Source of the DNA: a virus
Lineage: Duplodnaviria; Caudoviricetes
DNA: 64,000 bases
IMG/VR virus record: IMGVR_UViG_3300045837_000213
Coordinates: 29,432 to 93,431 of that record
Reading direction: 5' to 3' (one strand)
Made by a program: the position numbers and the translations under genes. The notes beneath the pieces were generated by a model that had not been told where the DNA came from, made no database searches, and was given only the letters and a program-made list of their open reading frames with translations. Below are positions 10,088 through 23,838 of the stretch, in pieces; within the stretch, counting starts at the first letter, position 1, and every line of letters starts with the position of its first letter.

Positions 10088-13000
10088 TTACCCGGTGGCG
10101 GTCGAGGCGAGACCCGGCGAGCCGTCGAACATCTCGCAGACCTCGACGGTCAATGCGGAGGGGATCGTGCCGCCGCCCCCCGTGTTGAAGTCCTGCTGCT
10201 GCATGGCGCGCGTGTAGGTGAAGGAGCGCGCCTGCGTATGATCCACGCGCGCCTGGAGAGCGTCCTGCGCCTCGCCCGAAAGCTGACCGACGGTGGCCTG
10301 CGCCTGGTAGGGCCAGCGCACGGGCGAGACGTTGGCGACGAAGATCGGCTTCGAGAGGTCTCCGACGTAGAAGCGGATGACGCCGCTGGCGACCTCAATC
10401 GCGCACGGGGTACCTGCCACGGCGATGCGCTTCGATGAGTCGAAGGCGACTGAGCAGGGGCGCAGGTAGAGCACGCCCGACGCGACCACGGCGTCGAGAG
10501 AGCAGAAGGCCGGCGAGGGGACGAGAGCGGGGTAGCTCATCGTGAAGCTCGCGGGTGTGCCCGAGAGAGAGACAGGCGTGCCGTTCGGGATGAGCGCGAT
10601 CTGAAAGCGCCCCTCCGTGGCGTTCACGACGTAGTAAGCGCCGCTCAGGGGTGAGGCGGAGTTGAAGACCACCTGGTCGCCGTTCTGCCAGTAATGATCG
10701 GGCGCGACGATCTCATTCGTCGCCGTGTCGCGCCCGCACGCCACGGTCGCGCCCACAAGGCGGAACTGGAGCGGCGGGTAGTGCGTGCCGAGCGTGAAGT
10801 GGACTAACGAGTCGCCGTAGATGATCTGGCCGGCCTGGAAGTCGCACGTGTGCGTCGCGTCGCCCGCGGTCGAGAGCGTGCCGTCTTCCGCGACCGAGGC
10901 GATTGAGGACGTGCCGAAGAGGTACTGCCACGCGAGCGGTTCGGAGTAGCCCGTCTCGACGTAGTGCGTGCGAATCAGGGTCGCGCCGTTGAAGACGCGG
11001 ACGCGATAGACCTCGGCGACGCCGCCCGGGCCGAGCGAGCCGCGCCGGCCCTTATCCCAGGAGGCCGTCAGAGGCGAGCCGTTCGACGCGTCGAGTCGCG
11101 TGAGCTTGAGGTTCGACGGCTGCGGCAGGAAGGCGTCGGCCTGGAACGTGTACGAGGTCGCGGGCACGGTCGCGATGTCCGCGCCGGCGGCGACGAACTT
11201 ATGGTCGCGCGCGACGAGCGCCTCCGACGCGTCCACCGGCAGGAACTTGAGCGCGTCGTCCAGGACGAGCAGCCGCTCGCTCGACGAGTGCCCGCTCATC
11301 GCCGTCTGGTCTTGCGCGCGGTTGACGAGGTTCGAGAAGCGCCAGCGGTTCGCGTAGCCGCCCAGTTGCGTCGCCGTCTTGTATTGCAGGCGCTCCGACC
11401 CGACCATCAGGCGGCCCAAACCGGCCGCGATGTCCGCGTCAGTGAAGCTGGCCGTCGGCTGCACCGTCCCGTAGATGTCGGCGTCTATTGTCTCGCTCCC
11501 GGTGTTCGTCGCCGCCAACGTCGTGGCGCAGACGCCGACGCACGCGTAGCGCGTCAGGTCGCACTCCTTCCTGTAACCCGCGCCGCGGTCGACATTGACC
11601 GCGCAGCCGCGGAACGGGGCCTGCTCGTAAGAGGCGACGCCTACGTAGTAGCCCTCCTTGCCCGTCGCCGCGTCTTCCGCCGTGAGGTAGTCGGTCTCGG
11701 CGAACTGCCCGACGAGAGTCGGCGGGAAGAAGACGGCGGGCGGCGTCCACGTCGGGGGCAACAGGTTCACGGGTTCGTGGTACTGCGCGCCGGCGACGAA
11801 GACGCCCTTGAAGGCGAGCGAGCCGGGCACGGGCCCCGTCCGCTCGGAGACTCTCACCGTGTAGGTCGTGTCGCCGTCGTCTAATTCGAGAACGGTCGCG
11901 GCGGTCGCGACGAGGTACTGGTGCGGCAGGTCGAATTCGACGGCGTAGCGCCCCTCCGTCCACGCGGTCTCGCCGAGGCGCCGGGCGACCGCCGCGACCT
12001 CGTCGGGCGAGAGCGCCATCAGCGTCGTCGCCTGCTGCGGCGTCTGCGAGGTCGTCTCGTCGCGCATCCACGAGCGCGTGACGTTCATAAATTCCGCGTT
12101 CGGGTCGTAGGCCGTGAGGTCTATGCGGCGCGGCAGCTCCACGTCGTTGAGCTTGACGCTCGTTCGAACCAGCTTCGGCGCGTCGTTCGACTGCGAGTCG
12201 CCGCCCGCCTTCTGCGCGCCGAAGCCGAGGTGGTCGGGCGGCACGTGGTAGCTGGCCGCGCCCCCGCGAAGCACGGCAGTCACCGCGCCGCCTATGTGCG
12301 CGAAGTCGAAGCCCCACCGAATCTGGAGCGTCTGCGCGGCGATCTGTTTCAGCGAGGCGGGCTGCGTGACGGCCATGCCGCGCACGTAGAGAGAGGAGAG
12401 AGCCGAAAAGTCGTAGTCGGCGGTGAGCGCGCCCGAGCGCACGGCGAGGTCGTCGAGGACGGCCTGCGCCGTGATGATTGATTTCGAGCGCAGGACGGCG
12501 GTGAAGTTCGGCACCCTCTGATAGTTCGTGAGGTTGAAGCGCTCCAACACGAGGTAGCAGCGCCCCTTGTACGCGGGCGCGACCGGAAGCCCGGAGCCGT
12601 ATTCGACGGGGAACTGTGTCTGCCAGTAGGCGTCAATTATGGGGTCGGGGAGTTGCGCCTCGTTGCCGGGGTAGAAGCGGAGTGCGGAGAACGCGCCGCC
12701 GACGACCGTGGCCGAGACCATGCCCGTCGTGTCGGGCGCGGGGACGATCGAGAAGTTGGCCGCCGGGTTGTCACGGTAAACCGGGTCGAGCGGCGAGGGC
12801 GGCGCGAGGTGGTTGATCGTGGGCGGCGTGACGGGCGTCGGGTTGACCGCGCCCGTCACGCCGGGCACGCTCACCGTCAGCTTGTCGAGGAGCAGCGTCG
12901 TCGAGGAGAGATTTGTGACCTTAATCGTGTTGAGCGCGCCGGAGGCGAGCGCGAACGGCGCGGAGAAGTAGCCGAGCGCATAGACGCCGCCCGTCGAGTT

Positions 13001-13693
13001 CAACGTCGTCGTGAAGGTCGAAGTGCCGGCCGCGCCCGACCAGTCGAACCTGACCGAGACCGCCGCCGCCGCCGAGTAGAAAAAGTTGAGGCGGTAAGCA
13101 GCGCCGTTGCCGACGACGCCGTTGAATTGCAGCGACGCGTTCAGCCCCATCGAGACGGCCTTGCCGCCCGACGCCGCGGCGTCCGTGATCGTGGTCGCGC
13201 CGCCCGCCGGGGTGTTCCCCACGTATTCGGCCTCGTATGAGCCGAAGGCTTCGGGGATGCCCAGTTGCGGGCGGATGTCGTAGATGAGGTCGGCGTCGGC
13301 GTAGAGCGCGAGCAGTTCGCACTCGGTGTCGGCGAACATGATGCCGATGTCGGCCTCGTAATTGTCGTTGATGATTTGGGTCGAGCGCGCGCCCTTGCCC
13401 GACCCTTGCGTCTCGGTCGTCGTCGTCTGGAATTTCCTGATGTCGCTTAAATAGACGACGTTTCCGGCGATGCGAAACCCGTGCGCGCTCCCGTCGGGCT
13501 GCACGCCCCCATAAACCAGCGGGATCATCGAGCCGTATTCGCTATCCTGTATCTGAACAGAGCCGGAGAGTTGGCCGCGCTCCTGGGCTTTCGGCTTCGG
13601 CGTTAATAAATAATTTAATGTGAACTCCGCCGCTGAGGTTGCGGCTGCGACCGCAGCAACGAGGAGTATACTTCCTGAGATCGGATCGGCCAT
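10088..13693 (-). CDS. tail tip / host-specificity protein (GTA-like), with a CBM-like YEAE insert
   Basis: YGSMIPLVYG...RIAGNVVY, PAYKGRCYLVLE and RVPNFT motifs; follows DUF2460-DUF2163-NlpC. Confidence 0.85.
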   Translation of the reverse strand: MADPISGSILLVAAVAAATSAAEFTLNYLLTPKPKAQERGQLSGSVQIQDSEYGSMIPLVYGGVQPDGSAHGFRIAGNVVYLSDIRKFQTTTTETQGSGKGARSTQIINDNYEADIGIMFADTECELLALYADADLIYDIRPQLGIPEAFGSYEAEYVGNTPAGGATTITDAAASGGKAVSMGLNASLQFNGVVGNGAAYRLNFFYSAAAAVSVRFDWSGAAGTSTFTTTLNSTGGVYALGYFSAPFALASGALNTIKVTNLSSTTLLLDKLTVSVPGVTGAVNPTPVTPPTINHLAPPSPLDPVYRDNPAANFSIVPAPDTTGMVSATVVGGAFSALRFYPGNEAQLPDPIIDAYWQTQFPVEYGSGLPVAPAYKGRCYLVLERFNLTNYQRVPNFTAVLRSKSIITAQAVLDDLAVRSGALTADYDFSALSSLYVRGMAVTQPASLKQIAAQTLQIRWGFDFAHIGGAVTAVLRGGAASYHVPPDHLGFGAQKAGGDSQSNDAPKLVRTSVKLNDVELPRRIDLTAYDPNAEFMNVTRSWMRDETTSQTPQQATTLMALSPDEVAAVARRLGETAWTEGRYAVEFDLPHQYLVATAATVLELDDGDTTYTVRVSERTGPVPGSLAFKGVFVAGAQYHEPVNLLPPTWTPPAVFFPPTLVGQFAETDYLTAEDAATGKEGYYVGVASYEQAPFRGCAVNVDRGAGYRKECDLTRYACVGVCATTLAATNTGSETIDADIYGTVQPTASFTDADIAAGLGRLMVGSERLQYKTATQLGGYANRWRFSNLVNRAQDQTAMSGHSSSERLLVLDDALKFLPVDASEALVARDHKFVAAGADIATVPATSYTFQADAFLPQPSNLKLTRLDASNGSPLTASWDKGRRGSLGPGGVAEVYRVRVFNGATLIRTHYVETGYSEPLAWQYLFGTSSIASVAEDGTLSTAGDATHTCDFQAGQIIYGDSLVHFTLGTHYPPLQFRLVGATVACGRDTATNEIVAPDHYWQNGDQVVFNSASPLSGAYYVVNATEGRFQIALIPNGTPVSLSGTPASFTMSYPALVPSPAFCSLDAVVASGVLYLRPCSVAFDSSKRIAVAGTPCAIEVASGVIRFYVGDLSKPIFVANVSPVRWPYQAQATVGQLSGEAQDALQARVDHTQARSFTYTRAMQQQDFNTGGGGTIPSALTVEVCEMFDGSPGLASTATG

Positions 13694-13903
13694 TTTGTGA
13701 GAAAAAGAAAAATGCCAGTGGGCAGACGTAGAGGTCTGCCCCCGCTGGCATTTTCGAGGTTCCGTTTTTTCCTTGATTATAGGTCGCGGTTCGCCGTCGC
13801 GGCCCGATCAGGAGTGACGCGCGTTGCGCGCGCTGTTAATACCATGCATTATAGCCGCGCCACTTGTCAATTTGTTTCTCACGAATGGTAAAGGAGGCGA
13901 AAA

Positions 13904-14356
13904 ATGACGCGAATTTTTGCGATGGCCCTACTTTTCTCAGCCTTCGCCCTGGCGCATGGCGCTCCGCAAGTCGCCGACAGGCCAGCAGGTAAGGCCACGG
14001 TCTATTTTTACAGGCTCAAGGAGTCGGGGCCCTACATCAAGACCAAGACGAGTGTTTACTGCGACGATGAAAAGCTGGCGGAGATAGGGAACGAGAGATA
14101 TTTCGCCGCCATGCTCGAACCCGGCATTCACACGTTCAGGTCAACAGATAAGCAGAGCGGCATCGAGAAAGAATTGAAGGCTGGCGAGGTCTATTATGTG
14201 AGAATCGAAATGAATTTGACCCGGATTAAATTATTCCGCAAGCCACCTTTCAGGGTGGCGACCGTCGAGCCTGAGCAGGGTAAGTATGAGGTAAAGCGAT
14301 TGAAGCCCATAAGTGAAGGTGATGTTAAGAACCATGAGAAGGTGACATTGCGGTAA
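13904..14356 (+). CDS. DUF2846-like secreted/envelope protein (moron)
   Basis: Signal peptide; ATVYFYR...LEPGIHTF...LKAGEVYYVRI; low GC; AAGGAGG RBS. Confidence 0.7.
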   Translation: MTRIFAMALLFSAFALAHGAPQVADRPAGKATVYFYRLKESGPYIKTKTSVYCDDEKLAEIGNERYFAAMLEPGIHTFRSTDKQSGIEKELKAGEVYYVRIEMNLTRIKLFRKPPFRVATVEPEQGKYEVKRLKPISEGDVKNHEKVTLR

Positions 14357-14596
14357 TTACAATTTAGGCTCGCGCTCGTGGACGTATCTCTCAAGGCAAG
14401 TGTAGCCGTCCGCTTTGGCTTGTGCGGCGTAGCCCCTGAGCCTGGCGATGATCTGCTCCGGCGTGCCCCGCGTCGTGTCATTCAAGATCGCCGCCGCCGA
14501 GAGCACGTCACCCCGCGTAAACTCGAACTCGTCTATGACGAGGAGTAAAGCGTCCTCCAACTCCGGCCTGCCCGTGTAGTAAAACCCCCCGCTCAC
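14357..14596 (-). CDS. hypothetical protein
   Basis: GTGA overlap with the upstream HTH gene. Confidence 0.55.
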   Translation of the reverse strand: MSGGFYYTGRPELEDALLLVIDEFEFTRGDVLSAAAILNDTTRGTPEQIIARLRGYAAQAKADGYTCLERYVHEREPKL

Positions 14597-14805
14597 TTCT
14601 TCCCGCCTTTCTTTGTTGATGGCCGCCCGCCCTTATCAGGCGTGAACTCTTGAAGGTCGCGGCGTGAGATGAATTTCTTTCCCGCGATTTCAATGAATGG
14701 GAGTTTACCTTGTCTTACTAGATGGCTAATCGCCTGTTTGGTAGTGCCGCGCTCTTCCGCGGCCTGCGTGATTGTAAGGAGTTCTTCGGGGTCTATTTTC
14801 ACCAT
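14593..14805 (-). CDS. helix-turn-helix DNA-binding protein (excisionase/MerR-like), probable cassette regulator
   Basis: LLTITQAAEERGTTKQAISHLVRQGKLP; basic GGRP tail; start chosen downstream of a -10 box. Confidence 0.8.
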   Translation of the reverse strand: MVKIDPEELLTITQAAEERGTTKQAISHLVRQGKLPFIEIAGKKFISRRDLQEFTPDKGGRPSTKKGGKK

Positions 14806-14811
14806 ATACCT

Positions 14812-14932
14812 ATTATACATACCTTTTGCCGGATGACAATATGTTATGCAAATTAAATATGCGGCTTGGCAATAAATCTCTTGCCTTCCGACAAAAGGTT
14901 ATTTATAATCCTTTTGTCGCTAGACAAAAGGA
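14812..14932. promoter_or_regulatory. divergent sigma70-type promoters with repeated operator-like motif
   Basis: + strand TTGCCT(14881)-17-TATAAT(14904); - strand TTGTCA-16-TATAAT (14839 to 14812); four CCTTTTGYC/GACAAAAGG copies. Confidence 0.7.
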
Positions 14933-14945
14933 AAGGCGGGCGAAC

Positions 14946-15074
14946 ATGGAAGACAAGAAAGAGCAGAAGCAGGAGACGCCGGAGGAGCGGGCCGAGCGGC
15001 AGGAGCTTAACCGGCGGATGTTCGAGTGGTTCTACGGCTACTGCGGCCAGATGGAGACGACGGTTCTATGTTAA
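14946..15074 (+). CDS. small hypothetical protein
   Basis: First ORF after the promoter; purine-rich RBS. Confidence 0.45.
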   Translation: MEDKKEQKQETPEERAERQELNRRMFEWFYGYCGQMETTVLC

Positions 15075-15427
15075 GGAAATTTCGTCCCATTACGCTCATC
15101 ACCCCTTTACAGGCGGCCACGCTTCTCGGCGTTGACCGCGCGGAACTCTTCAGGCGTTCGGGAGTCGCGGCGCACCTGGCGAAGGTGCGCCAAGGGAAAC
15201 GCTTCTCTTTCGTCCTCGAAGAAGTCGAGGCTCTCAGAAAGGAGTTACTTATGGATTACGTGATTCTATTGGCCCGCGACCCAAGCTCGCTCGCCTCTCA
15301 GGTAAACGACCTTATCAAGCGCGGGTGGCAGCCTCAGGGCGGCGTCGCCGCGAGCGAAGTTCACGAGGAAGGGACGGCGGCAGCGACGCAGTGGGCGCAG
15401 GCGATGGTTAAGCCCCAGTCGGAGTAA
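15068..15427 (+). CDS. HTH-like domain in frame with a DUF1737-like domain (internal start at 15251)
   Basis: QAATLLGVDR; AAGGAG before ATG 15251; VNDLIKRGWQPQGGV. Confidence 0.6.
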   Translation: MLRKFRPITLITPLQAATLLGVDRAELFRRSGVAAHLAKVRQGKRFSFVLEEVEALRKELLMDYVILLARDPSSLASQVNDLIKRGWQPQGGVAASEVHEEGTAAATQWAQAMVKPQSE

Positions 15428-15458
15428 ACGAACATTCCTCAGGAAGGGAGAGGGATTC

Positions 15459-15872
15459 ATGGCACAACGGGAAAGCACGGACGATATGTATTCATTACTC
15501 AAGAGGCGTTTCGACTGCTCGGAGCGGGCCGCGCTCGTCAGGCGGAAATTCGAGGTGCTGACGGTCGGGCGCGTCTCTTACCTGATTCAGTCAATCGTCT
15601 CCGAGGAGCAGGACACCTTCAAAGAGAGGTTCAACCGCCCGATCACCTTCGAGCAGGCGAAGGAGTTGGCGTCGCGGCTCCTGACGGGCGACTTCGGCGG
15701 CGGCGACGGGCAGATTCACGCCCTCATCGAGCTAATCGTCGGGATCGCCTACGAGGAGGATCACGTCGAGCGCGAACGGCTTGCGATGAGCGCTATCCGC
15801 GAGGCGTTCTTTTTCTCGGAGGCCCACGACGAAGCTTTGAACCAATTTTTCCATTGCGGGCCGAAGCAATGA
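15459..15872 (+). CDS. hypothetical protein
   Basis: GGAGAGG RBS; coupled to the HNH gene. Confidence 0.65.
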   Translation: MAQRESTDDMYSLLKRRFDCSERAALVRRKFEVLTVGRVSYLIQSIVSEEQDTFKERFNRPITFEQAKELASRLLTGDFGGGDGQIHALIELIVGIAYEEDHVERERLAMSAIREAFFFSEAHDEALNQFFHCGPKQ

Positions 15873-16174
15873 GGCGAAGATTGACTCAGGCGGAAAAGTT
15901 GCGACGGCTCTTCCAAAGGCGTCGTATGGCTACGGCCCGGCGGATGCTACGCCGGGCCGCGTCATACGGCGTAAGGGCCGAACATGTGACCCTCGACGAG
16001 ATCATCGAGCGCGACGGAACGCGCTGCCACCTTTGCGGCTTAGAAACAGACGTGGACGATAGGACTCACGACCACGTTGTGCCTCTCGTCAGGGGCGGGG
16101 AGCATACGACTATCAACTTACGCATCGCCCACAGGCGGTGTAATTCAATGAAGGGCGGTAAGAGTCACGCCTGA
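15869..16174 (+). CDS. HNH endonuclease
   Basis: RDGTRCHLCG...DHVVPLVRGGEH...NLRIAHRRCNSMKG. Confidence 0.9.
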   Translation: MRRRLTQAEKLRRLFQRRRMATARRMLRRAASYGVRAEHVTLDEIIERDGTRCHLCGLETDVDDRTHDHVVPLVRGGEHTTINLRIAHRRCNSMKGGKSHA

Positions 16175-16193
16175 TTCTAAAACGAGTTTTCTT

Positions 16194-16273
16194 GGGCGGG
16201 CATGGCTCGGTGAGGTAGGGCAACGCATGGAACGGTTTGGCCCGGCGCAGTATGGCCTGGCAAGGCATGGTTC
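16194..16273 (+). repeat. GGY-NN pentamer array 1 (16 units; putative guide RNA)
   Basis: GGGCG GGCAT GGCTC GGTGA GGTAG GGCAA CGCAT GGAAC GGTTT GGCCC GGCGC AGTAT GGCCT GGCAA GGCAT GGTTC. Confidence 0.9.
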
Positions 16274-16288
16274 AAACGCAAAAGGAGC

Positions 16289-16918
16289 ATGAGAATGTCA
16301 AACATCGTCAAGGCGAAAATCACGATCAGGGGTATGCGTCCGCTCTTACAACATCATTTCGGGCCGGACGCGTTGCCTTTGGAAAAGCAGGAGAAAGACG
16401 GCGTGGCGGGGAACTCGCCCAACGAGTGGCGGAAGACGGCGATGGTCACTAAAGACGGCCAGCTTTACCTTGAGCCGACCTACGCCTTTGCCACAATCCG
16501 CGACGCGGCGAAGTACACGAAAAAGGGGAGAGGCTCACTCCAAACCGCCGTCGCCGCCACCCTTCAAGTGCTGGACGACAGGATTTTGATTGATAGGTTT
16601 TTTCCGGGCTTCCCGAACGGACATGCCTTCGACATCCAGAAGGTCGAGCCGCCTTCGCTCGACAGGGAGCTTCCGGTTTACCTCGACGTGCAGTCTGTGA
16701 GGAATCCGACCACCAAAGCCCGCAACGTCAGGTACAGGGTGGCCGCATCCTCCGGCTGGTCGTGTTCGTTTACGATCATGTTCGACAAGACAGTCGTTGA
16801 CCGTAACCAGATGCAAGCTGTCCTTAATGACGCCGGCACTCTCGTCGGTATTGCCGACGGCAGAAGCGTTGGGTTTGGCAGGTTTTCCGTTGAAGCTTTC
16901 GACTTCTTAGAGTCTTAA
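16289..16918 (+). CDS. stand-alone Cas7/RAMP-like RNA-binding protein
   Basis: N-terminal strand ITIRGMRPLL; WSCSFTI; C-terminal Gly-rich loop GIADGRSVGFGRF; AAGGAG RBS (start 16289 or 16295); no other cas genes in the window. Confidence 0.8.
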   Translation: MRMSNIVKAKITIRGMRPLLQHHFGPDALPLEKQEKDGVAGNSPNEWRKTAMVTKDGQLYLEPTYAFATIRDAAKYTKKGRGSLQTAVAATLQVLDDRILIDRFFPGFPNGHAFDIQKVEPPSLDRELPVYLDVQSVRNPTTKARNVRYRVAASSGWSCSFTIMFDKTVVDRNQMQAVLNDAGTLVGIADGRSVGFGRFSVEAFDFLES

Positions 16919-16921
16919 CGC

Positions 16922-16987
16922 GGTGAGGCGGGGCAGGGTTCGGTATGGCGGGGCTTGGCGGTGGCCGGGCTTGGCGAGGCAAGGTCA
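16922..16987 (+). repeat. GGY-NN pentamer array 2 (13 units; putative guide RNA)
   Basis: GGTGA GGCGG GGCAG GGTTC GGTAT GGCGG GGCTT GGCGGT GGCCG GGCTT GGCGA GGCAA GGTCA. Confidence 0.9.
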
Positions 16988-17057
16988 CATACTGAAATCT
17001 GCTTCGGTCGCTCCACGGTCGAGGGCTTCGAGTTCATAGATTCATAAAGTTCCACTC

Positions 17058-17144
17058 GGCTTGGCTGCGGCTTGGCTGGTCATGGCAGGCTTCGGCTCGG
17101 TAGGGCAAGGCGATGGCAGGTTTGGGCTTGGCTAGGCGAGGAAC
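17058..17144 (+). repeat. GGY-NN pentamer array 3 (17 units; putative guide RNA)
   Basis: GGCTT GGCTGC GGCTT GGCTG GTCAT GGCAG GCTTC GGCTC GGTAG GGCAA GGCGAT GGCAG GTTTG GGCTT GGCTA GGCGA GGAAC. Confidence 0.85.
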
Positions 17145-17146
17145 GA

Positions 17147-17443
17147 ATGCCCAAGAAGCGACAGCCGCGCGAAATCTGGCTTAAGACGAAGCGCAGAATC
17201 TACGAGCGAGACGGGGGCTTATGTCAATACCCGTCTGGCAAGCATCCTGTCGCATTTGAGGAATCACATTGCGACCACATCCAGAGCGGGAAGCGAGCAA
17301 CGAACGCCGATAGCAACCTCCGAACTCTCTGCCGGATGCATCACGTCTTGAGAGCAGATAAGCGGCACAGGGGGCTAGTTGCCGCTGCCCTCCGAGATGG
17401 TATTATTGATGCCGGCTGGCGCAGTCAGGTATGGGAAGATTGA
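17147..17443 (+). CDS. HNH endonuclease
   Basis: RDGGLCQYP...HCDHIQSG...NADSNLRTLCRMHH; GAGGA RBS before MPKKRQ. Confidence 0.85.
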   Translation: MPKKRQPREIWLKTKRRIYERDGGLCQYPSGKHPVAFEESHCDHIQSGKRATNADSNLRTLCRMHHVLRADKRHRGLVAAALRDGIIDAGWRSQVWED

Positions 17444-17452
17444 ATTTCACGG

Positions 17453-17522
17453 GGCATGGCAGTGTTCGGCTAGGGTAGGTTAGGTTCGGCAAGGCGTGGC
17501 TCGGTAAGGCGTGGCAAGGAGA
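17453..17522 (+). repeat. GGY-NN pentamer array 4 (14 units; putative guide RNA)
   Basis: GGCAT GGCAG TGTTC GGCTA GGGTA GGTTA GGTTC GGCAA GGCGT GGCTC GGTAA GGCGT GGCAA GGAGA. Confidence 0.9.
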
Positions 17523-17553
17523 AAGGGCGGATGAACTCCGCCCTTTCTATTTT
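17520..17553 (+). terminator. intrinsic terminator closing the RAMP/HNH operon
   Basis: AGAAAGGGCGGA-TGAAC-TCCGCCCTTTCT followed by ATTTT. Confidence 0.85.
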
Positions 17554-17637
17554 GAAGTGATCGGGGCGCGTTGGCTATGGCGAACCCGCGCCCCTCCGGT
17601 GATAAGAAAATGCCAGCACAACCTTACCACCAAAACT

Positions 17638-18934: not shown

Positions 18935-19017
18935 TGGTATCAAACCGGCATCAAACTGGTATCAAACTGGTATCAACCAAGGTTTATCAAGAGAGCTTTA
19001 TCAACATTGGTTGATAC
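18935..19017. repeat. 11-bp tandem TGGTATCAAAC repeats plus further TATCAA sites
   Basis: Four tandem units at 18935-18978, two TTTATCAA, one inverted copy at 19007-19017. Confidence 0.8.
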
Positions 19018-19700: not shown

Positions 19701-22700
19701 TTAAGCGGGTTGGAATTGGAGGAGCTGCGCGCGGGCGGCGCGCCCGATCTGGCGGCCCGTCTTGCGCGCGCGCCCGCGCCCGGCTGACGTGTCCTCGTCG
19801 GCGCGGACGAAGACCTGCACGGCCCCGACCGAGACGCCGCCGCCGAAGGAAGAGCGCGACGCGTAAGACGGCGGCGTGTAGCCGGAGGCGAAACCGCCCG
19901 CGGCGAACGACCCGCCGCTGAGGCCCGTCATGCCGAGATAAGCCGCGAGCAGTTGCCTCATGCGACCGCGCTGCGCCGGGTCGGTCGTCAAGACGACCTC
20001 GTCGTAGCCGCCCTCGGCCACGCGGATGAAGCGCCCGCCCGGTCGCGCGCCGAAGATGCCGCCCGACGCGGCGTAGCCCGACGACGTGTCGGGATTGATG
20101 CCCGTCGGGTCGTCGGCCATCGTGCCGCCCGACGAGTCGTGCGGCTTGAAGAGTCCGTTGGTGAGTCCCGAAATGAAGCCGATGCCGGCGGCGGCGAGCA
20201 AGCCTTTCCAGAACGACCCTTGCGCCGCGCCCGCCGCGAGAACAGCCGCGATCGAGAGCATCGTCGAGACGATTGACTGCCCGACGCTCATCAGCGTCTT
20301 CGACTGCGCCTCGCCGGTCTTGCCGATCTGCGCGACCGAATTCTTCCACCCGTCGTTGATGGCCGTCGTGGCGGCGTGCCCCGCGCTTGAGACCGCTGAG
20401 GCGTCGGCCTTCTGAGAGTTGTTGTTGCCGCCGAGGTTGAAGAGTCGGCTGATCATCGCGCCGAACAGGCCGAAAGGCCCCAGCGCGCTCTGAACGCCGC
20501 TCTGCTGTCTCGGCTGTTGCGTCGTGCCCGTCGCCGAGCCGGGCAGCGGCGTGTTCGTCAACTGTCGGAGCAACGTCATCAGCTTCGATTCGAGCAGGTT
20601 CTCTTCCATCTTGATAATCATGTTGAGGAAGTCCTGCCCGATCTGCTGGAACATCGCCTTCCAGCCCTTCGTCCGAAGGGTCTGGAGCGCGCCGTCGATC
20701 AAGGAGATGGCCTTGTCGGCCATCTGCTTGAGCCGGTCGTTCTGCTTGGCGATTAAATCGTCCAACAATGCCAACTGACGGACGTTAGAGGATTGGCGCA
20801 CCGCCTCCATCTCGTCATCAAGGGCCTTCAACTTTTCGAGTTTTTTAACTCCGTCCTGTTCGGTCGCCTCAGTCGTCTCGCGCTCAAGTTGTAGCTCGCG
20901 TAACTTTCTCTCCTGCTGCAACTGCTCGCCTTCGAGGTCGAACTGGTACTGCTTCTGCCAGAGCGCCTGCTTGTTCTTACCCGACGCCTCCATCACCTTC
21001 AACAGCGCTTCCTGCGCCGAGCGCTGGTCTTCGGCGGTCGCGTCGGTGATCTCGGCGAGAGACTTCCTGTAGTTCTGCAACGTCGAGAGGTCGTCGGCGA
21101 CCGCCGTCTGCTCGTCCTTGTTGAATTGGGCGAACGCCTGCTTGCGTTGCAGGAAGAACGCCTTGATCTGGTCGATGGCCTCCTGCGCGGCCTCCGGGTT
21201 CGACGCGTTGGCGAGGATGGTCTTGAACGCGTCCTGCATCCCCTCGCTGTTCGTCGCGTTCACCGCGTCGTTGACCGCCTGCGAGATCATCTCCGCGAGG
21301 TCGAGGTCGGGGCCCGAGAGCGCCGACACCTCGCCCGCCCCGCCCATCGCGTGCGTGAGCGCGCCTTCGAGGACTTTGCCCTGCGCCTCGGCGACGGCGC
21401 CTAAGGCCGTGAAGCGCGCGCGCATCGCGGCGACGTGCGTCGTCGTTCCCGCCTCGATCTGGAGCTGGAGTTCCGCGTCCTGCGCGCGCTGCGCCTCTTC
21501 GAGTAAAGAGACCGCCGATTGCGCGAACTTCTGCTGTATGTCATAGCGGTGTTGTTCGCCCTCGGCGGTGTACTGCGAGAGTTTGTCCTGGTGCTCGCGC
21601 TCGGCGGCCTGCTCGCGCTGGCGGATGTCTTTGAGCTTAACGTCGCGCTTCGCGCCGTCGAGTCCGGCGGCGGCCGCCTCTTCCGCCTTGAAGCCGGCCC
21701 GCACGGCCTTGTAGCGCTCGTCTTCGAGTTGTTTGAGCGTCGAGACGTAGGACTCGTAATCGGTGAGGTTCTGGTCGAGGAAGCGCTTGGCGATCTGGTT
21801 GCCCTGCTGATAGACCGACTCTGCCTCGCGCAAGTCTATCTGCGCTGATTCCAGCGCGGCGTCGGCCATCTCGTTGCCGGCCTTGCGCCCCTTGCGGCCG
21901 CCGCCCGACTTCTCGCCCATCAGCCCGGAGACGTGTTTCGCATAATCATCTTGCGCCTTCTTCGTCGCGGCTTTGACAGCGGCATCGGCCTGCATCAGCC
22001 CGAGCATGAAAGGCGACGGCGGCTGCGCCAGGCCCCGCGCGAGCGCCGAGCCGACGCCCGCGTTGCCGCGCGCGTAATAGTCCTGCGCCGCCCTCTCGCG
22101 CATCGCGTATGGCGCGGTGAATTTGCCGCCCGAAGCGGCGCGCTCTTCCGACGTGCGCCCGTCGCCCGACGCGTAACCGCTGACCGCCTGAATGACCGAG
22201 AGTGCCGCGCGCCACGCGACGGCCACCTCGTGCGCCTTCTCGATGACGGCCAGCGCGACGCCGCCGACGATCTGCCCCCACGTCCTGAAATCGTCGCCGT
22301 TCTGAGAGAGCCACTTCGAGAGGTTGTCGAAGAGCGCCTCGAAGATGGGCATGACCTCCTCGCCCACCTTGACTTTCATCACGTCGAACTGCGCGGCGAG
22401 CAACTTCTGCTTGGCCTCGAACTCCTGCGCCGCCGCCGCGTCCTTGTCCGACAGCACCGCGCCGAGGTCTTCGAGGTGCTTGATGAACGTCGGCAGGTCG
22501 CCGTGCGCCTGCGCGATGATCGCCAGCATCGCCTTGCCGCCGCGCCCGAACGCCTCCATCGCCAGTGCCGTCTTCGTCGTGCCGTCAGGCAGCTTCGACA
22601 GGACGGTGAACATCCCTTCGAGCGCCTTCTGGTTGTCGCGCACGTCCACGTTCGCGTCCTTCAAAACGCGCGACAGTTTCGACGACTTCTCGGCGCCGGC

Positions 22701-23699
22701 CTCTAACTTCTTCTCGAAGATGCCGAGGCCTGCGCCGATCTGATTGAACGAGACGCCGACCTGTGAGGCGGCCACGTCGAGCGCGTTCAGTTCGTGCGCC
22801 GTGTAGCCCGTCTCCATCGAGAGGTCTTTGTATTTCGCCCCGACCTCGGCGGCTGAACTGGCGAGCTGATAAGCGCCGTACACGACGCCGACAGACGCGG
22901 CGGCGACCGCCGCGAGTGCCGCGACGACGAGGAGTAGCGGCCCGGAGACTTCGCCCAGCATGGCGACGAGGCCGCCGCCGGCGGAGGCCAGCCCGGCCAG
23001 CCCCTGCTCTGCCGTCGAGGCCGCGCCCTTCAGAGACGCCAGTTCCTTCTCCGTGTCGGCGATCTGAACTTTCGTGTTGCCGAGCGCGCGCGTCGCGCTG
23101 CGCTCCATGTTCCCGAACTTGGCGGCGGCGCGGTCGACCTCGTTCGCCAACTCCTGCGAGATGCCGCCCGTCGCGCCGAGAATGAGCGCGTCACGTTCTT
23201 TCGCGCCCGCCGTGTTGTTGTAGTTGCGGAGAAAATCGGAGGAGAAGCTCTGCCCCGTGCGGCGCTGGAGGTCGTCGACCAGCCGCTGCGTGCCGCCGGC
23301 GAAGTCCGACGTGATGAGCGACGCCTTGGCGCGCAGCGAGGCGAGTTTCGATTCGAGGCCGACTATCGACATACCCAACTGCTCGACCTGCTTGCGCGCC
23401 GACACAATCGCCGTCTCGCTGGCCTGCCCCGCCGTGAAGAAGCTCTGTCGCAGGGATGAGGCGCGCCGCTCGACCTGCGCGAGCACGCCGCCGACTAAGG
23501 GCACGCGCTGGAGTATGCGCGCCGTCGCCTGGTCGAGTCCGGTGAACGCCTGCGAGCCGACGCGCGAGTAGGTGCGGTCAATTCTGGCCGCCGCGTCGCC
23601 GAGGCTGCGCTCCATGCGCGCGAGCTTGGCCTCGACCGGCGTGATGTCGGCGTCGGCGGTGACGAGGATCGAACCTATTTCGTTACCGGCTAAGTCCAC
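19701..23699 (-). CDS. tape measure protein
   Basis: 1332 aa, Ala-rich helical; C-terminal AEGGYDEVV...FAAGG; position in the tail operon. Confidence 0.9.
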   Translation of the reverse strand: MDLAGNEIGSILVTADADITPVEAKLARMERSLGDAAARIDRTYSRVGSQAFTGLDQATARILQRVPLVGGVLAQVERRASSLRQSFFTAGQASETAIVSARKQVEQLGMSIVGLESKLASLRAKASLITSDFAGGTQRLVDDLQRRTGQSFSSDFLRNYNNTAGAKERDALILGATGGISQELANEVDRAAAKFGNMERSATRALGNTKVQIADTEKELASLKGAASTAEQGLAGLASAGGGLVAMLGEVSGPLLLVVAALAAVAAASVGVVYGAYQLASSAAEVGAKYKDLSMETGYTAHELNALDVAASQVGVSFNQIGAGLGIFEKKLEAGAEKSSKLSRVLKDANVDVRDNQKALEGMFTVLSKLPDGTTKTALAMEAFGRGGKAMLAIIAQAHGDLPTFIKHLEDLGAVLSDKDAAAAQEFEAKQKLLAAQFDVMKVKVGEEVMPIFEALFDNLSKWLSQNGDDFRTWGQIVGGVALAVIEKAHEVAVAWRAALSVIQAVSGYASGDGRTSEERAASGGKFTAPYAMRERAAQDYYARGNAGVGSALARGLAQPPSPFMLGLMQADAAVKAATKKAQDDYAKHVSGLMGEKSGGGRKGRKAGNEMADAALESAQIDLREAESVYQQGNQIAKRFLDQNLTDYESYVSTLKQLEDERYKAVRAGFKAEEAAAAGLDGAKRDVKLKDIRQREQAAEREHQDKLSQYTAEGEQHRYDIQQKFAQSAVSLLEEAQRAQDAELQLQIEAGTTTHVAAMRARFTALGAVAEAQGKVLEGALTHAMGGAGEVSALSGPDLDLAEMISQAVNDAVNATNSEGMQDAFKTILANASNPEAAQEAIDQIKAFFLQRKQAFAQFNKDEQTAVADDLSTLQNYRKSLAEITDATAEDQRSAQEALLKVMEASGKNKQALWQKQYQFDLEGEQLQQERKLRELQLERETTEATEQDGVKKLEKLKALDDEMEAVRQSSNVRQLALLDDLIAKQNDRLKQMADKAISLIDGALQTLRTKGWKAMFQQIGQDFLNMIIKMEENLLESKLMTLLRQLTNTPLPGSATGTTQQPRQQSGVQSALGPFGLFGAMISRLFNLGGNNNSQKADASAVSSAGHAATTAINDGWKNSVAQIGKTGEAQSKTLMSVGQSIVSTMLSIAAVLAAGAAQGSFWKGLLAAAGIGFISGLTNGLFKPHDSSGGTMADDPTGINPDTSSGYAASGGIFGARPGGRFIRVAEGGYDEVVLTTDPAQRGRMRQLLAAYLGMTGLSGGSFAAGGFASGYTPPSYASRSSFGGGVSVGAVQVFVRADEDTSAGRGRARKTGRQIGRAARAQLLQFQPA

Positions 23700-23719: not shown

Positions 23720-23817
23720 GTCATGAGTGATGGGTAATGAGTGATGGGTGATGAGTGATGAGTGATGGGTAATGAGTGATGGGTGACGGGTGATGAGTGA
23801 TGAGTGACGGGTGACGA
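23720..23817. repeat. heptamer tandem repeat (GTRAYGR) x14
   Basis: GTGATGA/GTGATGG/GTAATGA/GTGACGG units, intergenic. Confidence 0.9.
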
Positions 23818-23838
23818 GTCGGAAATGAGGCGCGGGCC

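What the first reader, a model, noticed from the sequence alone, without database searches (positions are those of the whole stretch)
16922..16972. Array 2 decodes to the Gly-loop codons of the RAMP gene itself (16856-16884): a guide against rival copies of the same system
NN series: GA GG AG TC AT GG TT GG CG TT, compatible with DGRSIGFGRF. Resident codons GAC GGC AGA AGC GTT GGG TTT GGC AGG TTT encode DGRSVGFGRF. That gives 7/10 exact dinucleotides and 16/20 bases. Mismatches are Ser TCn/AGC, Arg CGn/AGG and Ile/Val. This guide is sense to its target gene, whereas arrays 1 and 3 are antisense, which suggests a dsDNA rather than mRNA target. Inference: it silences or cuts homologous systems in competing phages; weak autoregulation is an alternative.
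Basis: partly seen in the sequence, partly recalled or inferred. Interest (0 to 1): 0.92.

Follow-up and report, generated by a model that had tools for sequence, protein, structure and literature searches.

The report
Phage guide RNA aimed at rival vipr
This 66-base repeat is a guide RNA of a recently described CRISPR-like phage system (VIPR), and its variable letters spell the most conserved motif of the system's own protein gene as closely related phages carry it, so it is most likely a weapon against rival copies; this kind of guide was already described in 2026 preprints.

Summary
Array 2 (16919-16987) is one of four same-strand GGY-NN pentamer arrays. They surround a 207-aa gene (16295-16918) that is a full-length homologue of the solved SUSP1 Vipr protein (E 2.2e-24), and a conserved HNH partner gene (17147-17443).

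- **Own gene:** the first 11 dinucleotides spell codon positions 1-2 of A-D-G-R-S-I-G-F-G-R-F, the Vipr G-loop. The phage's own gene matches 18/22.
- **Closest relatives** (72-84% protein identity): 18-21/22, mean 20.2. No shuffle in 20,000 reached 21.
- **IMG/VR:** the only perfect 20/20 site lies in the G-loop of another vipr gene.
- **Other arrays:** of 141 distinct arrays in this clade, only this one hits vipr above the shuffled null.
- **Published criterion (at least 0.8, 13 units):** rivals pass (0.81-0.92) and self fails (0.69).

The rival-targeting reading is supported. It is not new: vipr-targeting guides with lower self-match are in print (10.64898/2026.10.15.759431). This scan has also noted VIPR on other DNA (242 notes in at least 181 genomes), including a vipr-targeting guide. 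Self-avoidance by codon swaps is not statistically shown. One extra point: a relic vipr 3' end (16997-17047) begins inside the target site.

The parts
15854..16174 (+). HNH endonuclease gene 1, upstream of array 1. It is not a conserved part of the system.
   Evidence: Pfam HNH E 4.7e-9. A homologue next to vipr is seen only in L132 (47%), with a few weak hits elsewhere.
16194..16273 (+). Array 1, a candidate vrRNA of GGY-NN pentamers, directly upstream of vipr.
   Evidence: Pattern hits. Its NN series has its best in-genome match at 13437-13480 (21/30; 1% of shuffles reach it).
16295..16918 (+). vipr gene (207 aa), the RAMP protein that polymerises on GGY-NN RNA.
   Evidence: A family profile matches the SUSP1 Vipr protein (PDB 36pp) at E 2.2e-24 over its full length. 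The GGY-contact residues H17, R138, D177 and R179 of SUSP1 align to H20, R148, D188 and R190 (residues from 10.64898/2026.04.26.720927). It also matches phrog_4652 and has 1314 homologues.
16853..16885 (+). Resident copy of the array 2 target: codons A187-F197 (GCC GAC GGC AGA AGC GTT GGG TTT GGC AGG TTT), the G-loop.
   Evidence: It matches the guide at 18/22 read positions. Mismatches are at Ser191 (AGC vs TC), Val192 (GT vs AT) and Arg196 (AG vs CG). R190, G195, R196 and F197 are invariant or nearly invariant in the 56-sequence alignment.
16919..16972 (+). Array 2, guide part: eleven NN dinucleotides (GC GA GG AG TC AT GG TT GG CG TT) with one 6-nt unit (extra T at 16962).
   Evidence: It matches vipr G-loop codons at 21/22 in L127/L128, L131, L044, L045 and L133, and at 20/20 in L041. 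None of 20,000 unit shuffles reaches 21/22.
16973..16987 (+). Array 2, terminal units GGCGA GGCAA GGTCA. This is the semi-conserved array end and is probably not target-specifying.
   Evidence: In 149 arrays of this clade the last three units carry NN = AA in 41%, 39% and 27% of cases, against 13% overall. These units do not match the closest relatives' genes.
16997..17047 (+). Relic of a second vipr 3' end (ICFGRSTVEGFEFIDS*), truncated at the Ile192 codon, which lies inside the array 2 target site.
   Evidence: It aligns codon by codon to vipr 3' ends, with the stop in the same place. It is the only such duplicate among 104 distinct loci (BLOSUM score 47; no other hit at 38 or more). Its first 27 nt match relatives at 20-22/27 and the resident at 13/27.
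17058..17139 (+). Array 3, a candidate vrRNA with irregular units, directly upstream of the vap gene.
   Evidence: Its best in-genome match is at 20740-20777 (20/26; 0.3% of shuffles reach it).
17147..17443 (+). vap gene: a 98-aa HNH nuclease, the conserved partner of vipr in this clade.
   Evidence: PHROG HNH endonuclease families at E 8e-10. tblastn matches were recorded in 38 of the 40 viral loci. In 35 the match begins downstream of the vipr match on the same strand (3-490 nt in 34 of them, 767 nt in L034); L019, L032 and L036 were not placed against vipr in the same coordinates. Its identity tracks vipr identity.
17453..17517 (+). Array 4, a candidate vrRNA and the last element of the operon.
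17515..17554 (+). Intrinsic terminator hairpin followed by AUUUU, closing the operon.
   Evidence: Fold energy -24 kcal/mol, z -5.1, and none of 200 shuffles folds as well.

Best explanation
Array 2 is a vrRNA gene of a VIPR system that has an HNH accessory nuclease. The transcript would be coated by a helical filament of Vipr, one protomer per pentamer. The filament hides each GGY and presents each NN. The NN series pairs with double-stranded DNA by reading two bases and skipping one.

The first eleven NN of array 2 spell codon positions 1-2 of A-D-G-R-S-I-G-F-G-R-F. This is the Vipr G-loop, which holds the residues that grip the GGY motif. The guide is therefore aimed at the 3' end of vipr genes. 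It fits the alleles of the phage's closest relatives better than its own allele (up to 95% against 82% of the 22 read positions). By the published 13-unit score only the non-self copies pass 0.8.

The most likely function is to disable the VIPR system of a co-infecting or resident rival. It could do this by blocking transcription through the end of vipr into the downstream guides and vap, or by HNH cleavage.

**Shown here:** family membership, the array anatomy, the code match and its statistics, and the difference between self and non-self matches.

**Inferred:** expression, RNP formation, binding, silencing or cutting, and any fitness effect.
For: **It is a VIPR system**
- The Vipr profile hits PDB 36pp 'SUSP1 Vipr protein' at E 2.2e-24 over its full length.
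- The GGY-contact residues are conserved (with the paper read).
- GGY-NN arrays lie on the gene's strand in 36 of 40 IMG/VR loci carrying homologues.
- An HNH partner gene matched in 38 of 40 loci, beginning downstream of vipr on the same strand wherever it could be placed.

**The code is the published one**
- The 1-nt skip rule is wobble-aligned, works on either strand and targets dsDNA.

**The match is real**
- The best hit in the window is the vipr G-loop.
- Unit shuffles reach 16/20 or more inside vipr with P = 5.5e-4.
- The closest relatives score 21/22, and none of 20,000 shuffles reaches that.
- Match falls with distance. The mean is 20.2/22 for 8 distinct alleles at 72% identity or more, 17.9 at 60-72% and 17.2 at 50-60%. 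The resident, at 18, sits at its clade's minimum.
- Two exact-pattern scans of 2.9 million viral contigs gave four hits, all in vipr G-loops, including the single perfect 20/20.
- Of 141 distinct arrays from this clade only array 2 exceeds the shuffled null against a panel of 99 vipr genes (20, against a null maximum of 17).

**By the published criterion**
- With the YNNGG 13-unit guide, rivals score 0.81-0.92.
- Self scores 0.69, which is no better than shuffled guides in its own genome (fraction reaching it 0.37).

**Precedent**
- vipr-targeting vrRNAs with lower self-match are described in 10.64898/2026.10.15.759431.
Against: - There is no expression, processing or binding data for this locus.
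- The mature vrRNA ends are unknown, and no conserved 3' tail like the SUSP1 pseudoknot was seen.
- Three terminal GGY-NN units do not match the nearest relatives. Counted that way, those relatives score 0.77, just under the published 0.8.
- The single perfect target (L041) is an AT-rich phage with only 40% Vipr identity, which may never meet this phage.
- Because the G-loop is conserved, most family members score 16-19/20 whatever their relation. The resident's 16/20 is near the family median.
- In a 730-kb search, shuffled 13-unit guides reach 21/26 at the extreme.
- The resident's own 82% match over the 11 informative units may be enough to bind, so self-silencing is not excluded.
Confidence: 0.7

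Rival explanations
1. Autoregulation. The guide's working target is the resident vipr itself. An imperfect 18/22 match would give weak, tunable repression of read-through from vipr into arrays 2-3 and the HNH vap gene.
For: The resident site is the best match in the phage's 93-kb genome and scores 0.82 over the 11 informative units. It lies 34 nt upstream of the array in the same operon, with no terminator in between.
Against: The guide fits relatives' alleles better than its own, up to 21/22 against 18/22. Over the full 13-unit guide the self score is 0.69, no better than shuffled guides. The published surveys found no self hits at 0.8 or more, and found self-match below non-self match. Only 1 of 141 arrays in the clade hits vipr, so this is not a general regulatory design.
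Confidence: 0.1
2. RNA-guided allele replacement (homing). Vipr plus array 2 directs the HNH Vap to cut rival vipr alleles at the G-loop codons. Repair from the attacker's locus then copies the resistant vipr allele and array 2 into the rival. The relic at 16997-17047 would be the scar of such an event.
For: - A relic vipr 3' end follows array 2 after a 9-nt gap and is truncated at codon 192, inside the 33-nt target.
- It is unique among 104 distinct loci.
- Its G-loop part carries target-type codons (ATC, CGC) and resembles relatives (20-22/27) more than the resident (13/27).
- The partner protein is an HNH nuclease conserved with vipr.
- The preprint proposes target destruction for the nuclease-bearing types.
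Against: - This is one case only.
- A breakpoint falling by chance in a 33-nt stretch of a 624-nt gene has odds of about 5%.
- vipr and HNH identities to relatives are broadly concordant, so there is no clear mosaic boundary.
- A tandem duplication of '3' end plus array' followed by decay would give the same picture.
- No cleavage activity of any Vap has been shown in the texts read.
Confidence: 0.1
3. A guide whose present target is elsewhere or gone. On this view array 2 is an inherited or decaying guide, and its likeness to vipr reflects past rather than current conflict, or is a by-product of G-rich composition.
For: The array has one 6-nt unit. No perfect target occurs among close relatives; all carry CGn where the guide reads AG at Arg190. 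G-loop codons are GG-rich, as is the NN series.
Against: Shuffles that keep the NN composition do not reproduce the match. The four exact-pattern hits in IMG/VR all lie in vipr G-loops. The register holds across the 6-nt unit, with units 9-10 matching relatives 4/4. One mismatch in 22 is above the published threshold.
Confidence: 0.1

Closest known systems
[quoted passage not shown]
   Same: It is a GGY-NN guide whose NN series matches the vipr coding sequence of other phages. [quoted passage not shown]
   Different: - It lies in a VIPR+ phage from a different and distant Vipr clade. A single-sequence search matched SUSP1 Vipr only over the C-terminal third; the full-length match needed the family profile.
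- The accessory gene is an HNH nuclease rather than the DNA-binding vap1.
- The hosts are environmental; the closest homologue found in a MAG is in a Pyrinomonadaceae assembly.
- The footprint is specifically the G-loop codons.
- No pseudoknot tail is evident.
- A relic target-type allele lies next to the guide.
Type II VIPR of Escherichia phage SUSP1 (Vipr + vrRNA + vap1; structures PDB 36pp/36pk), bioRxiv 10.64898/2026.04.26.720920 and 10.64898/2026.04.26.720927
   Same: It has a homologous Vipr with conserved GGY-contact residues. The vrRNA arrays have 13-16 GGY-NN units upstream and downstream of vipr on the same strand. The natural target obeys the 1-nt skip code.
   Different: - W178 of SUSP1 is Gly here.
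- The partner gene is an HNH nuclease; the preprint's figure S21 legend mentions HNH among type II, III and VII Vap examples. The type assignment could not be checked because the tables are not held.
- In place of a pseudoknot tail, the arrays end in a semi-conserved GGCAA GGCAA run.
Class 1 CRISPR-Cas Cas7 backbone with crRNA
   Same: A RAMP protein with a G-loop and thumb polymerises on a guide RNA and periodically flips bases. There are weak profile hits to Csm5 and Csm4 (E 0.03-0.9).
   Different: There is no CRISPR repeat-spacer array and no Cas1/Cas2. The guide has a 5-nt period with only 2 read bases, and the target has a 3-nt period. The element is viral and minimal.

Membership tests
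VIPR system (Vipr + vrRNA) | A Vipr protein: a small single-RRM RAMP homologous to characterised Viprs | tested here: met
   A profile of 56 family members matches PDB 36pp 'SUSP1 Vipr protein' at E 2.2e-24 (positions 3-191 of 195 against residues 1-191 of 202). The single sequence gives E 1.3e-6.
VIPR system (Vipr + vrRNA) | Residues that read the GGY motif (SUSP1 H17, R138, D177, W178, R179) | tested here: met
   They align to H20, R148, D188, G189 and R190 (roles from the paper). Four of five are conserved and W178 is Gly. R148 and R190 are invariant in 56 sequences.
VIPR system (Vipr + vrRNA) | Tandem GGY/NN (YNNGG) pentamer tracts of about 9-16 units flanking vipr on its strand, with GGY conserved and NN variable | tested here: met
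   There are four tracts of 13-16 units at 16194-17517. The same holds in 36 of 40 homologous viral loci. All 16 NN values are used across 149 arrays.
VIPR system (Vipr + vrRNA) | An adjacent vipr-accessory (vap) gene with a DNA-related function | tested here: met
   The 98-aa HNH gene at 17147-17443 has homologues in 38 of 40 viral loci, beginning downstream of the vipr match on the same strand wherever they could be placed.
VIPR system (Vipr + vrRNA) | Natural targets obey the 1-nt skip rule, gapless, at 80% NN match or more, and mostly wobble-aligned in coding sequence | tested here: met
   Array 2 scores 0.81-0.92 on vipr genes of other elements, with the skipped base at codon position 3.
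VIPR system (Vipr + vrRNA) | vrRNAs are expressed as roughly 100-nt RNAs, co-purify with Vipr, and the RNP binds dsDNA | not testable with these tools
VIPR system (Vipr + vrRNA) | An invariable structured 3' tail after the repeat tract (a pseudoknot in the SUSP1 clade) | tested here: inconclusive
   The four arrays share no downstream sequence. Arrays of the clade end in AA-rich units (GGCAA GGCAA). There is no Rfam match. The preprint says array architecture varies by type.
VIPR system (Vipr + vrRNA) | RAMP fold (RRM core, G-loop, thumb) by structure comparison | tested here: inconclusive
   The AF2 model has mean pLDDT 54. Its secondary-structure order fits an RRM with the G-loop between the last helix and the last strand.
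Anti-VIPR (vipr-targeting) vrRNA | The guide matches the vipr coding sequence of other elements at 0.8 or more and is wobble-aligned | tested here: met
   Over 13 units, L041 scores 24/26, L117 scores 23/26, and L127, L131, L133 and L126 score 21/26. All hits are at the G-loop and in frame.
Anti-VIPR (vipr-targeting) vrRNA | The self-match is lower than the match to other phages' copies | tested here: met
   Self is 18/22 (0.69 over 13 units). The clade at 72% identity or more has a mean of 20.2/22. Whether selection caused this is not shown: codon-family switches at conserved Arg/Ser/Leu codons occur at 3/3 sites in the target and at about 40% of sites in the rest of the gene.
Anti-VIPR (vipr-targeting) vrRNA | Carried as a solo guide by a phage that has lost vipr-vap (the main published class) | tested here: not met
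   This phage keeps intact vipr and vap genes. The preprints also mention anti-VIPR guides on VIPR+ elements.
VIPR type with nuclease vap (type III or V of the preprint) | Placement in the Vipr phylogeny, and identity of the vap cluster, according to the authors' tables | not testable with these tools
   The classification tables are not held. Only the presence of an HNH partner is shown.

The most novel reading that the evidence does not exclude
The VIPR-HNH cassette acts as an RNA-guided homing element. Array 2 directs cutting of rival vipr alleles in the G-loop codons. Repair then copies the attacker's partly mismatched vipr allele together with the guide into the rival. This leaves the truncated target-type vipr 3' end seen at 16997-17047, whose break lies inside the target site.
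Probability: 0.1. Interest if true: 0.8.

Novelty: new member of a known kind. Interest (0 to 1): 0.38.

Why it matters
This extends a phenomenon so far described in enterobacterial SUSP1-family phages and a Pseudomonas clade. Here a VIPR guide aimed at vipr itself appears in a distant, HNH-nuclease-bearing VIPR clade of environmental phages. It also pins the footprint to the G-loop codons, which encode the residues that hold the guide RNA. Amino-acid escape there would disable the rival's own system.

The locus offers a compact test set for mismatch tolerance and for whether HNH-type VIPRs cut or only silence: a perfect target, a 21/22 natural allele, an 18/22 resident allele, and a half-site relic.

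If the relic marks a guide-directed replacement event, it would be the first hint of VIPR-driven gene conversion between phages.

Tried and rejected
- **Chance or composition:** rejected by unit and base shuffles and by the survey of 141 arrays.
- **Self-avoidance by six-fold-degenerate codon swaps as a demonstrated adaptation:** not supported.
  - AGR is the majority Arg codon of the resident vipr (10/15), so AGG at Arg196 is unremarkable.
  - Only the AGC at Ser191 stands out, as the sole AGY among 12 Ser codons.
  - Codon-family switches against relatives occur at about 40% of conserved Arg/Ser/Leu codons gene-wide.
- **Mosaic test for recombination between vipr and vap:** identities are broadly concordant, so there is no clear boundary.
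- **Other relics of vipr 3' ends in 104 loci:** none found.
- **Nucleotide search of GenBank phages with the cassette:** no match.
- **Pfam on Vipr:** no family.
- **PADLOC:** nothing for Vipr.
- **Rfam:** only a sub-threshold RsmZ hit over array 4.
- **PDB search with the HNH protein:** nothing.
- **Structure:** the first AF2 model was of low confidence (pLDDT 54).
- **My first idea** (before), that the arrays were TRAP-like binding sites for a ring protein, was superseded by the Vipr match.
- **VIPR type assignment:** not possible, because the tables are not held.

Full report
**1. What is there**

The window is part of a 93,431-base IMG/VR virus record. Between two minus-strand tail genes lies a plus-strand cassette of lower G+C, 0.563 against 0.643 for the window. 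The cassette holds these elements in order:
- an HNH gene (15854-16174);
- array 1 (16194-16273);
- a 207-aa gene (16295-16918);
- array 2 (16919-16987);
- a short spacer;
- array 3 (17058-17139);
- a 98-aa HNH gene (17147-17443);
- array 4 (17453-17517);
- a strong terminator hairpin (17515-17554; -24 kcal/mol, z -5.1).

The four arrays are runs of GGY-NN pentamers on one strand. A five-unit pattern with one mismatch allowed hits 23 times in the window against 0.53 expected, and 22 of those hits lie at 16194-17520.

**2. The observation**

Units 1-10 at 16922-16972 give GA GG AG TC AT GG TT GG CG TT. Against 16856-16884 this is 7/10 dinucleotides and 16/20 bases.
- It is the best-scoring site in the window on either strand; the next best scores 14.
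- Shuffling the order of the units gives 16 or more somewhere in the window in 4% of trials.
- Shuffles give 16 or more inside the 624-nt gene in only 0.055% of trials.

Two refinements follow.
- In the published YNNGG framing, the array starts one dinucleotide earlier (GC at 16920-21). That dinucleotide matches the preceding Ala codon, so the resident match becomes 18/22.
- The array continues for three more GGY-NN units (GA AA CA), which do not match.

**3. What it is**

The 207-aa protein has no Pfam family. It belongs to phrog_4652 and to a family of more than 1300 metagenomic proteins.

A profile of the family matches one solved structure, PDB 36pp 'SUSP1 Vipr protein'. The score is E 7e-8 with 20 sequences and E 2.2e-24 over the full length with 56 sequences. 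Weak hits to the CRISPR RAMPs Csm5 and Csm4 follow.

That led to three 2026 preprints from one group:
- bioRxiv 10.64898/2026.04.26.720920 (discovery and code);
- bioRxiv 10.64898/2026.04.26.720927 (cryo-EM);
- bioRxiv 10.64898/2026.10.15.759431 (competition).

They describe VIPR systems as follows.
- A small RAMP protein (Vipr) polymerises on vrRNAs built of 9-16 GGY/NN repeats.
- Each GGY is buried by protein, and each NN pairs with double-stranded DNA.
- One base is skipped per unit in the target, usually the wobble base of a codon.
- Targets are found on either strand.
- The outcome is transcriptional silencing.

The SUSP1 residues that read GGY (H17, R138, D177, R179) align to H20, R148, D188 and R190 here. 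W178 is Gly.

In 36 of 40 IMG/VR loci carrying a homologue, GGY-NN arrays lie on the gene's strand. A homologue of the 98-aa HNH gene matched in 38 of 40, beginning downstream of vipr on the same strand wherever it could be placed. So the HNH gene is the accessory (vap) gene of this clade. The upstream HNH gene is not conserved.

**4. Is array 2 really aimed at vipr?**

The eleven leading dinucleotides spell positions 1-2 of the codons for A-D-G-R-S-I-G-F-G-R-F. This is the family consensus of the G-loop.

*Related vipr genes.* Across about 100 distinct related vipr genes the aligned site scores up to 19-20/20. In the eight distinct alleles closest to the resident (72-84% protein identity) it scores 18-21/22, with a mean of 20.2. 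Five of the eight reach 21/22, and their only mismatch is CG for AG at Arg190. None of 20,000 unit shuffles reaches 21/22 on the closest relatives' genes.

*Trend with distance.* The match falls as Vipr identity falls: the mean is 17.9 at 60-72% identity and 17.2 at 50-60%. The resident, at 18/22, sits at its clade's minimum.

*Exact-pattern scans.* The exact 20-base pattern occurs once in 2.9 million viral contigs, in the G-loop of a 40%-identical vipr (L041). That site also matches 24/26 over 13 units. The one-mismatch variant occurs three times, each in a vipr G-loop.

*Survey of the clade's arrays.* Conversely, I tested 141 distinct arrays of this clade against 99 vipr genes. Only array 2 exceeds the shuffled null, scoring 20 against a null maximum of 17.

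The likeness is therefore a real targeting relationship. It is neither composition nor chance.

**5. The unmatched 3' units**

In 149 arrays of the clade, the last three units carry NN = AA in 41%, 39% and 27% of cases, against 13% overall. Arrays typically end in GGCAA GGCAA GG. Array 2 ends in GGCGA GGCAA GG. So its last units look like a shared array terminus rather than guide letters.

With the 13 NN of the YNNGG framing, the published score (matches over all informative positions, threshold 0.8) gives:
- 0.92 for L041;
- 0.88 for L117;
- 0.81 for L126, L127, L131 and L133;
- 0.69 for the resident, which is no better than shuffled guides in the phage's own genome.

Counted as 13 GGY-NN units instead, the nearest relatives score 0.77. 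The result therefore depends on where the mature RNA starts and ends, which is unknown.

**6. How it most likely works**

Array 2 is transcribed with the operon, and no terminator lies between vipr and vap. It would then be coated by Vipr and bind the template DNA at the 3' end of a rival's vipr.

The guide has the same sense as the vipr mRNA, so it cannot pair with that mRNA.

Binding at that site would stop transcription before the stop codon of vipr and before the downstream guides and vap. With an HNH partner, cutting is also possible. The preprint proposes destruction for the nuclease-bearing types but the texts read show no assay.

The targeted codons encode D188 and R190, the counterparts of two GGY-reading residues, along with invariant Gly and Arg residues. 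Escape by amino-acid change would therefore be costly. The same logic is in print for a satellite recombinase and for vipr.

All steps from transcription onward are inferred.

**7. Self-avoidance**

The resident differs from the guide at Ser191 (AGC against TC), Val192 (GT against AT) and Arg196 (AG against CG). I could not show that selection produced this.
- AGR is the majority Arg codon in the resident gene (10 of 15).
- AGC is the only AGY among 12 Ser codons, which is a weak hint.
- Against relatives, codon-family switches occur at about 40% of conserved Arg/Ser/Leu codons across the gene, and at 3 of 3 in the target (about P 0.06).

The pattern (self below, non-self above) is present. 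Its cause is open.

**8. Context**

Arrays 1 and 3 also have their best in-genome matches at sub-threshold level in the phage's own tail genes:
- array 1 scores 21/30 at 13437-13480, reached by 1% of shuffles;
- array 3 scores 20/26 at 20740-20777, reached by 0.3% of shuffles.

This is what one expects if all the guides are aimed at homologous genes of close relatives.

Homologous Viprs occur in assemblies labelled Pyrinomonadaceae, Armatimonadota and several cyanobacteria. The host of this phage is not established.

**9. The relic**

Array 2 is followed, after a 9-nt gap, by 17 codons (16997-17047, ICFGRSTVEGFEFIDS*). They align codon for codon with the end of vipr, stop codon included.
- Such a duplicate is found in none of the other 103 distinct loci.
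- Its first 27 nt resemble relatives' alleles (20-22/27) more than the resident's (13/27), and they carry target-type ATC and CGC codons.
- Homology starts at the Ile192 codon, inside the target of array 2.

One reading is that an incoming vipr-array 2 segment replaced a target-type allele, with a junction at a break in the target. That would be RNA-guided homing with the HNH partner. It is a single case. The chance of a breakpoint falling in the target is about 5%. vipr and vap identities to relatives are concordant. A local duplication would look similar. I give this reading about 10%.

**10. Novelty**

The system, its code, anti-VIPR guides and the lower self-match are all in print. This scan has already noted VIPR on other DNA (242 notes in at least 181 genomes), including an orphan guide against vipr.

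Three things are new here. The clade is an HNH-type VIPR of environmental phages. The guide lies in a VIPR+ phage and is aimed squarely at the G-loop codons. A relic lies next to the guide. That makes this a new member of a known kind.

**11. What failed**

No expression data could be obtained. The VIPR type could not be assigned.

Noticed in passing
window 16997-17047: A relic of a second vipr 3' end (ICFGRSTVEGFEFIDS*) sits 9 nt downstream of array 2. It is truncated at the Ile192 codon inside the array 2 target, it carries target-type codons, and it is unique among 104 distinct loci.
   Followed up: yes
window 16194-16273 and 17058-17139; matches at 13437-13480 and 20740-20777: Arrays 1 and 3 have their best in-genome matches in the phage's own tail-tip and tape-measure genes. 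Array 1 scores 21/30 (1% of shuffles reach it) and array 3 scores 20/26 (0.3%). Both are below the published 0.8 threshold, as expected for guides aimed at relatives' copies.
   Followed up: partly
149 arrays in loci L001-L124 and the window: Arrays of this Vipr clade end in a semi-conserved GGCAA GGCAA GG run: NN = AA in 41%, 39% and 27% of the last three units, against 13% overall. Where a gene follows, this run often doubles as the ribosome-binding site of the downstream HNH gene. No pseudoknot-like tail is evident.
   Followed up: partly
window 16295-16918 compared with 10088-13693 and 19701-23699: The resident vipr uses AGR for 10 of 15 Arg codons, whereas the phage's tail genes use AGR for 5 of 54 and 7 of 72. 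The whole cassette at 13700-17637 has G+C 0.563 against 0.643 for the window, which suggests a recent arrival.
   Followed up: partly
window 15854-16174: The upstream HNH gene is not part of the conserved vipr-vap pair. Only L132 has a homologue next to vipr (47%), where two HNH genes precede it.
   Followed up: partly
L041 5581-6147: An AT-rich viral contig encodes a 40%-identical Vipr whose G-loop codons are the only perfect 20/20 match to array 2 in IMG/VR (24/26 over 13 units). Whether the two phages share a host is unknown.
   Followed up: partly
window 23723-23819 and 18935-19006: A 7-nt tandem repeat (ATGAGTG, about 14 copies) lies just past the start of the tape-measure gene. An 11-nt repeat (TGGTATCAAAC, about 4 copies) lies between tail genes. 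Their function is unknown.
   Followed up: no
L133-L145: Vipr homologues of this clade occur in assemblies labelled Pyrinomonadaceae (73% identity), Armatimonadota, Peptococcaceae, Parcubacteria and several cyanobacteria, which is a broad host spread for one Vipr-HNH clade.
   Followed up: no
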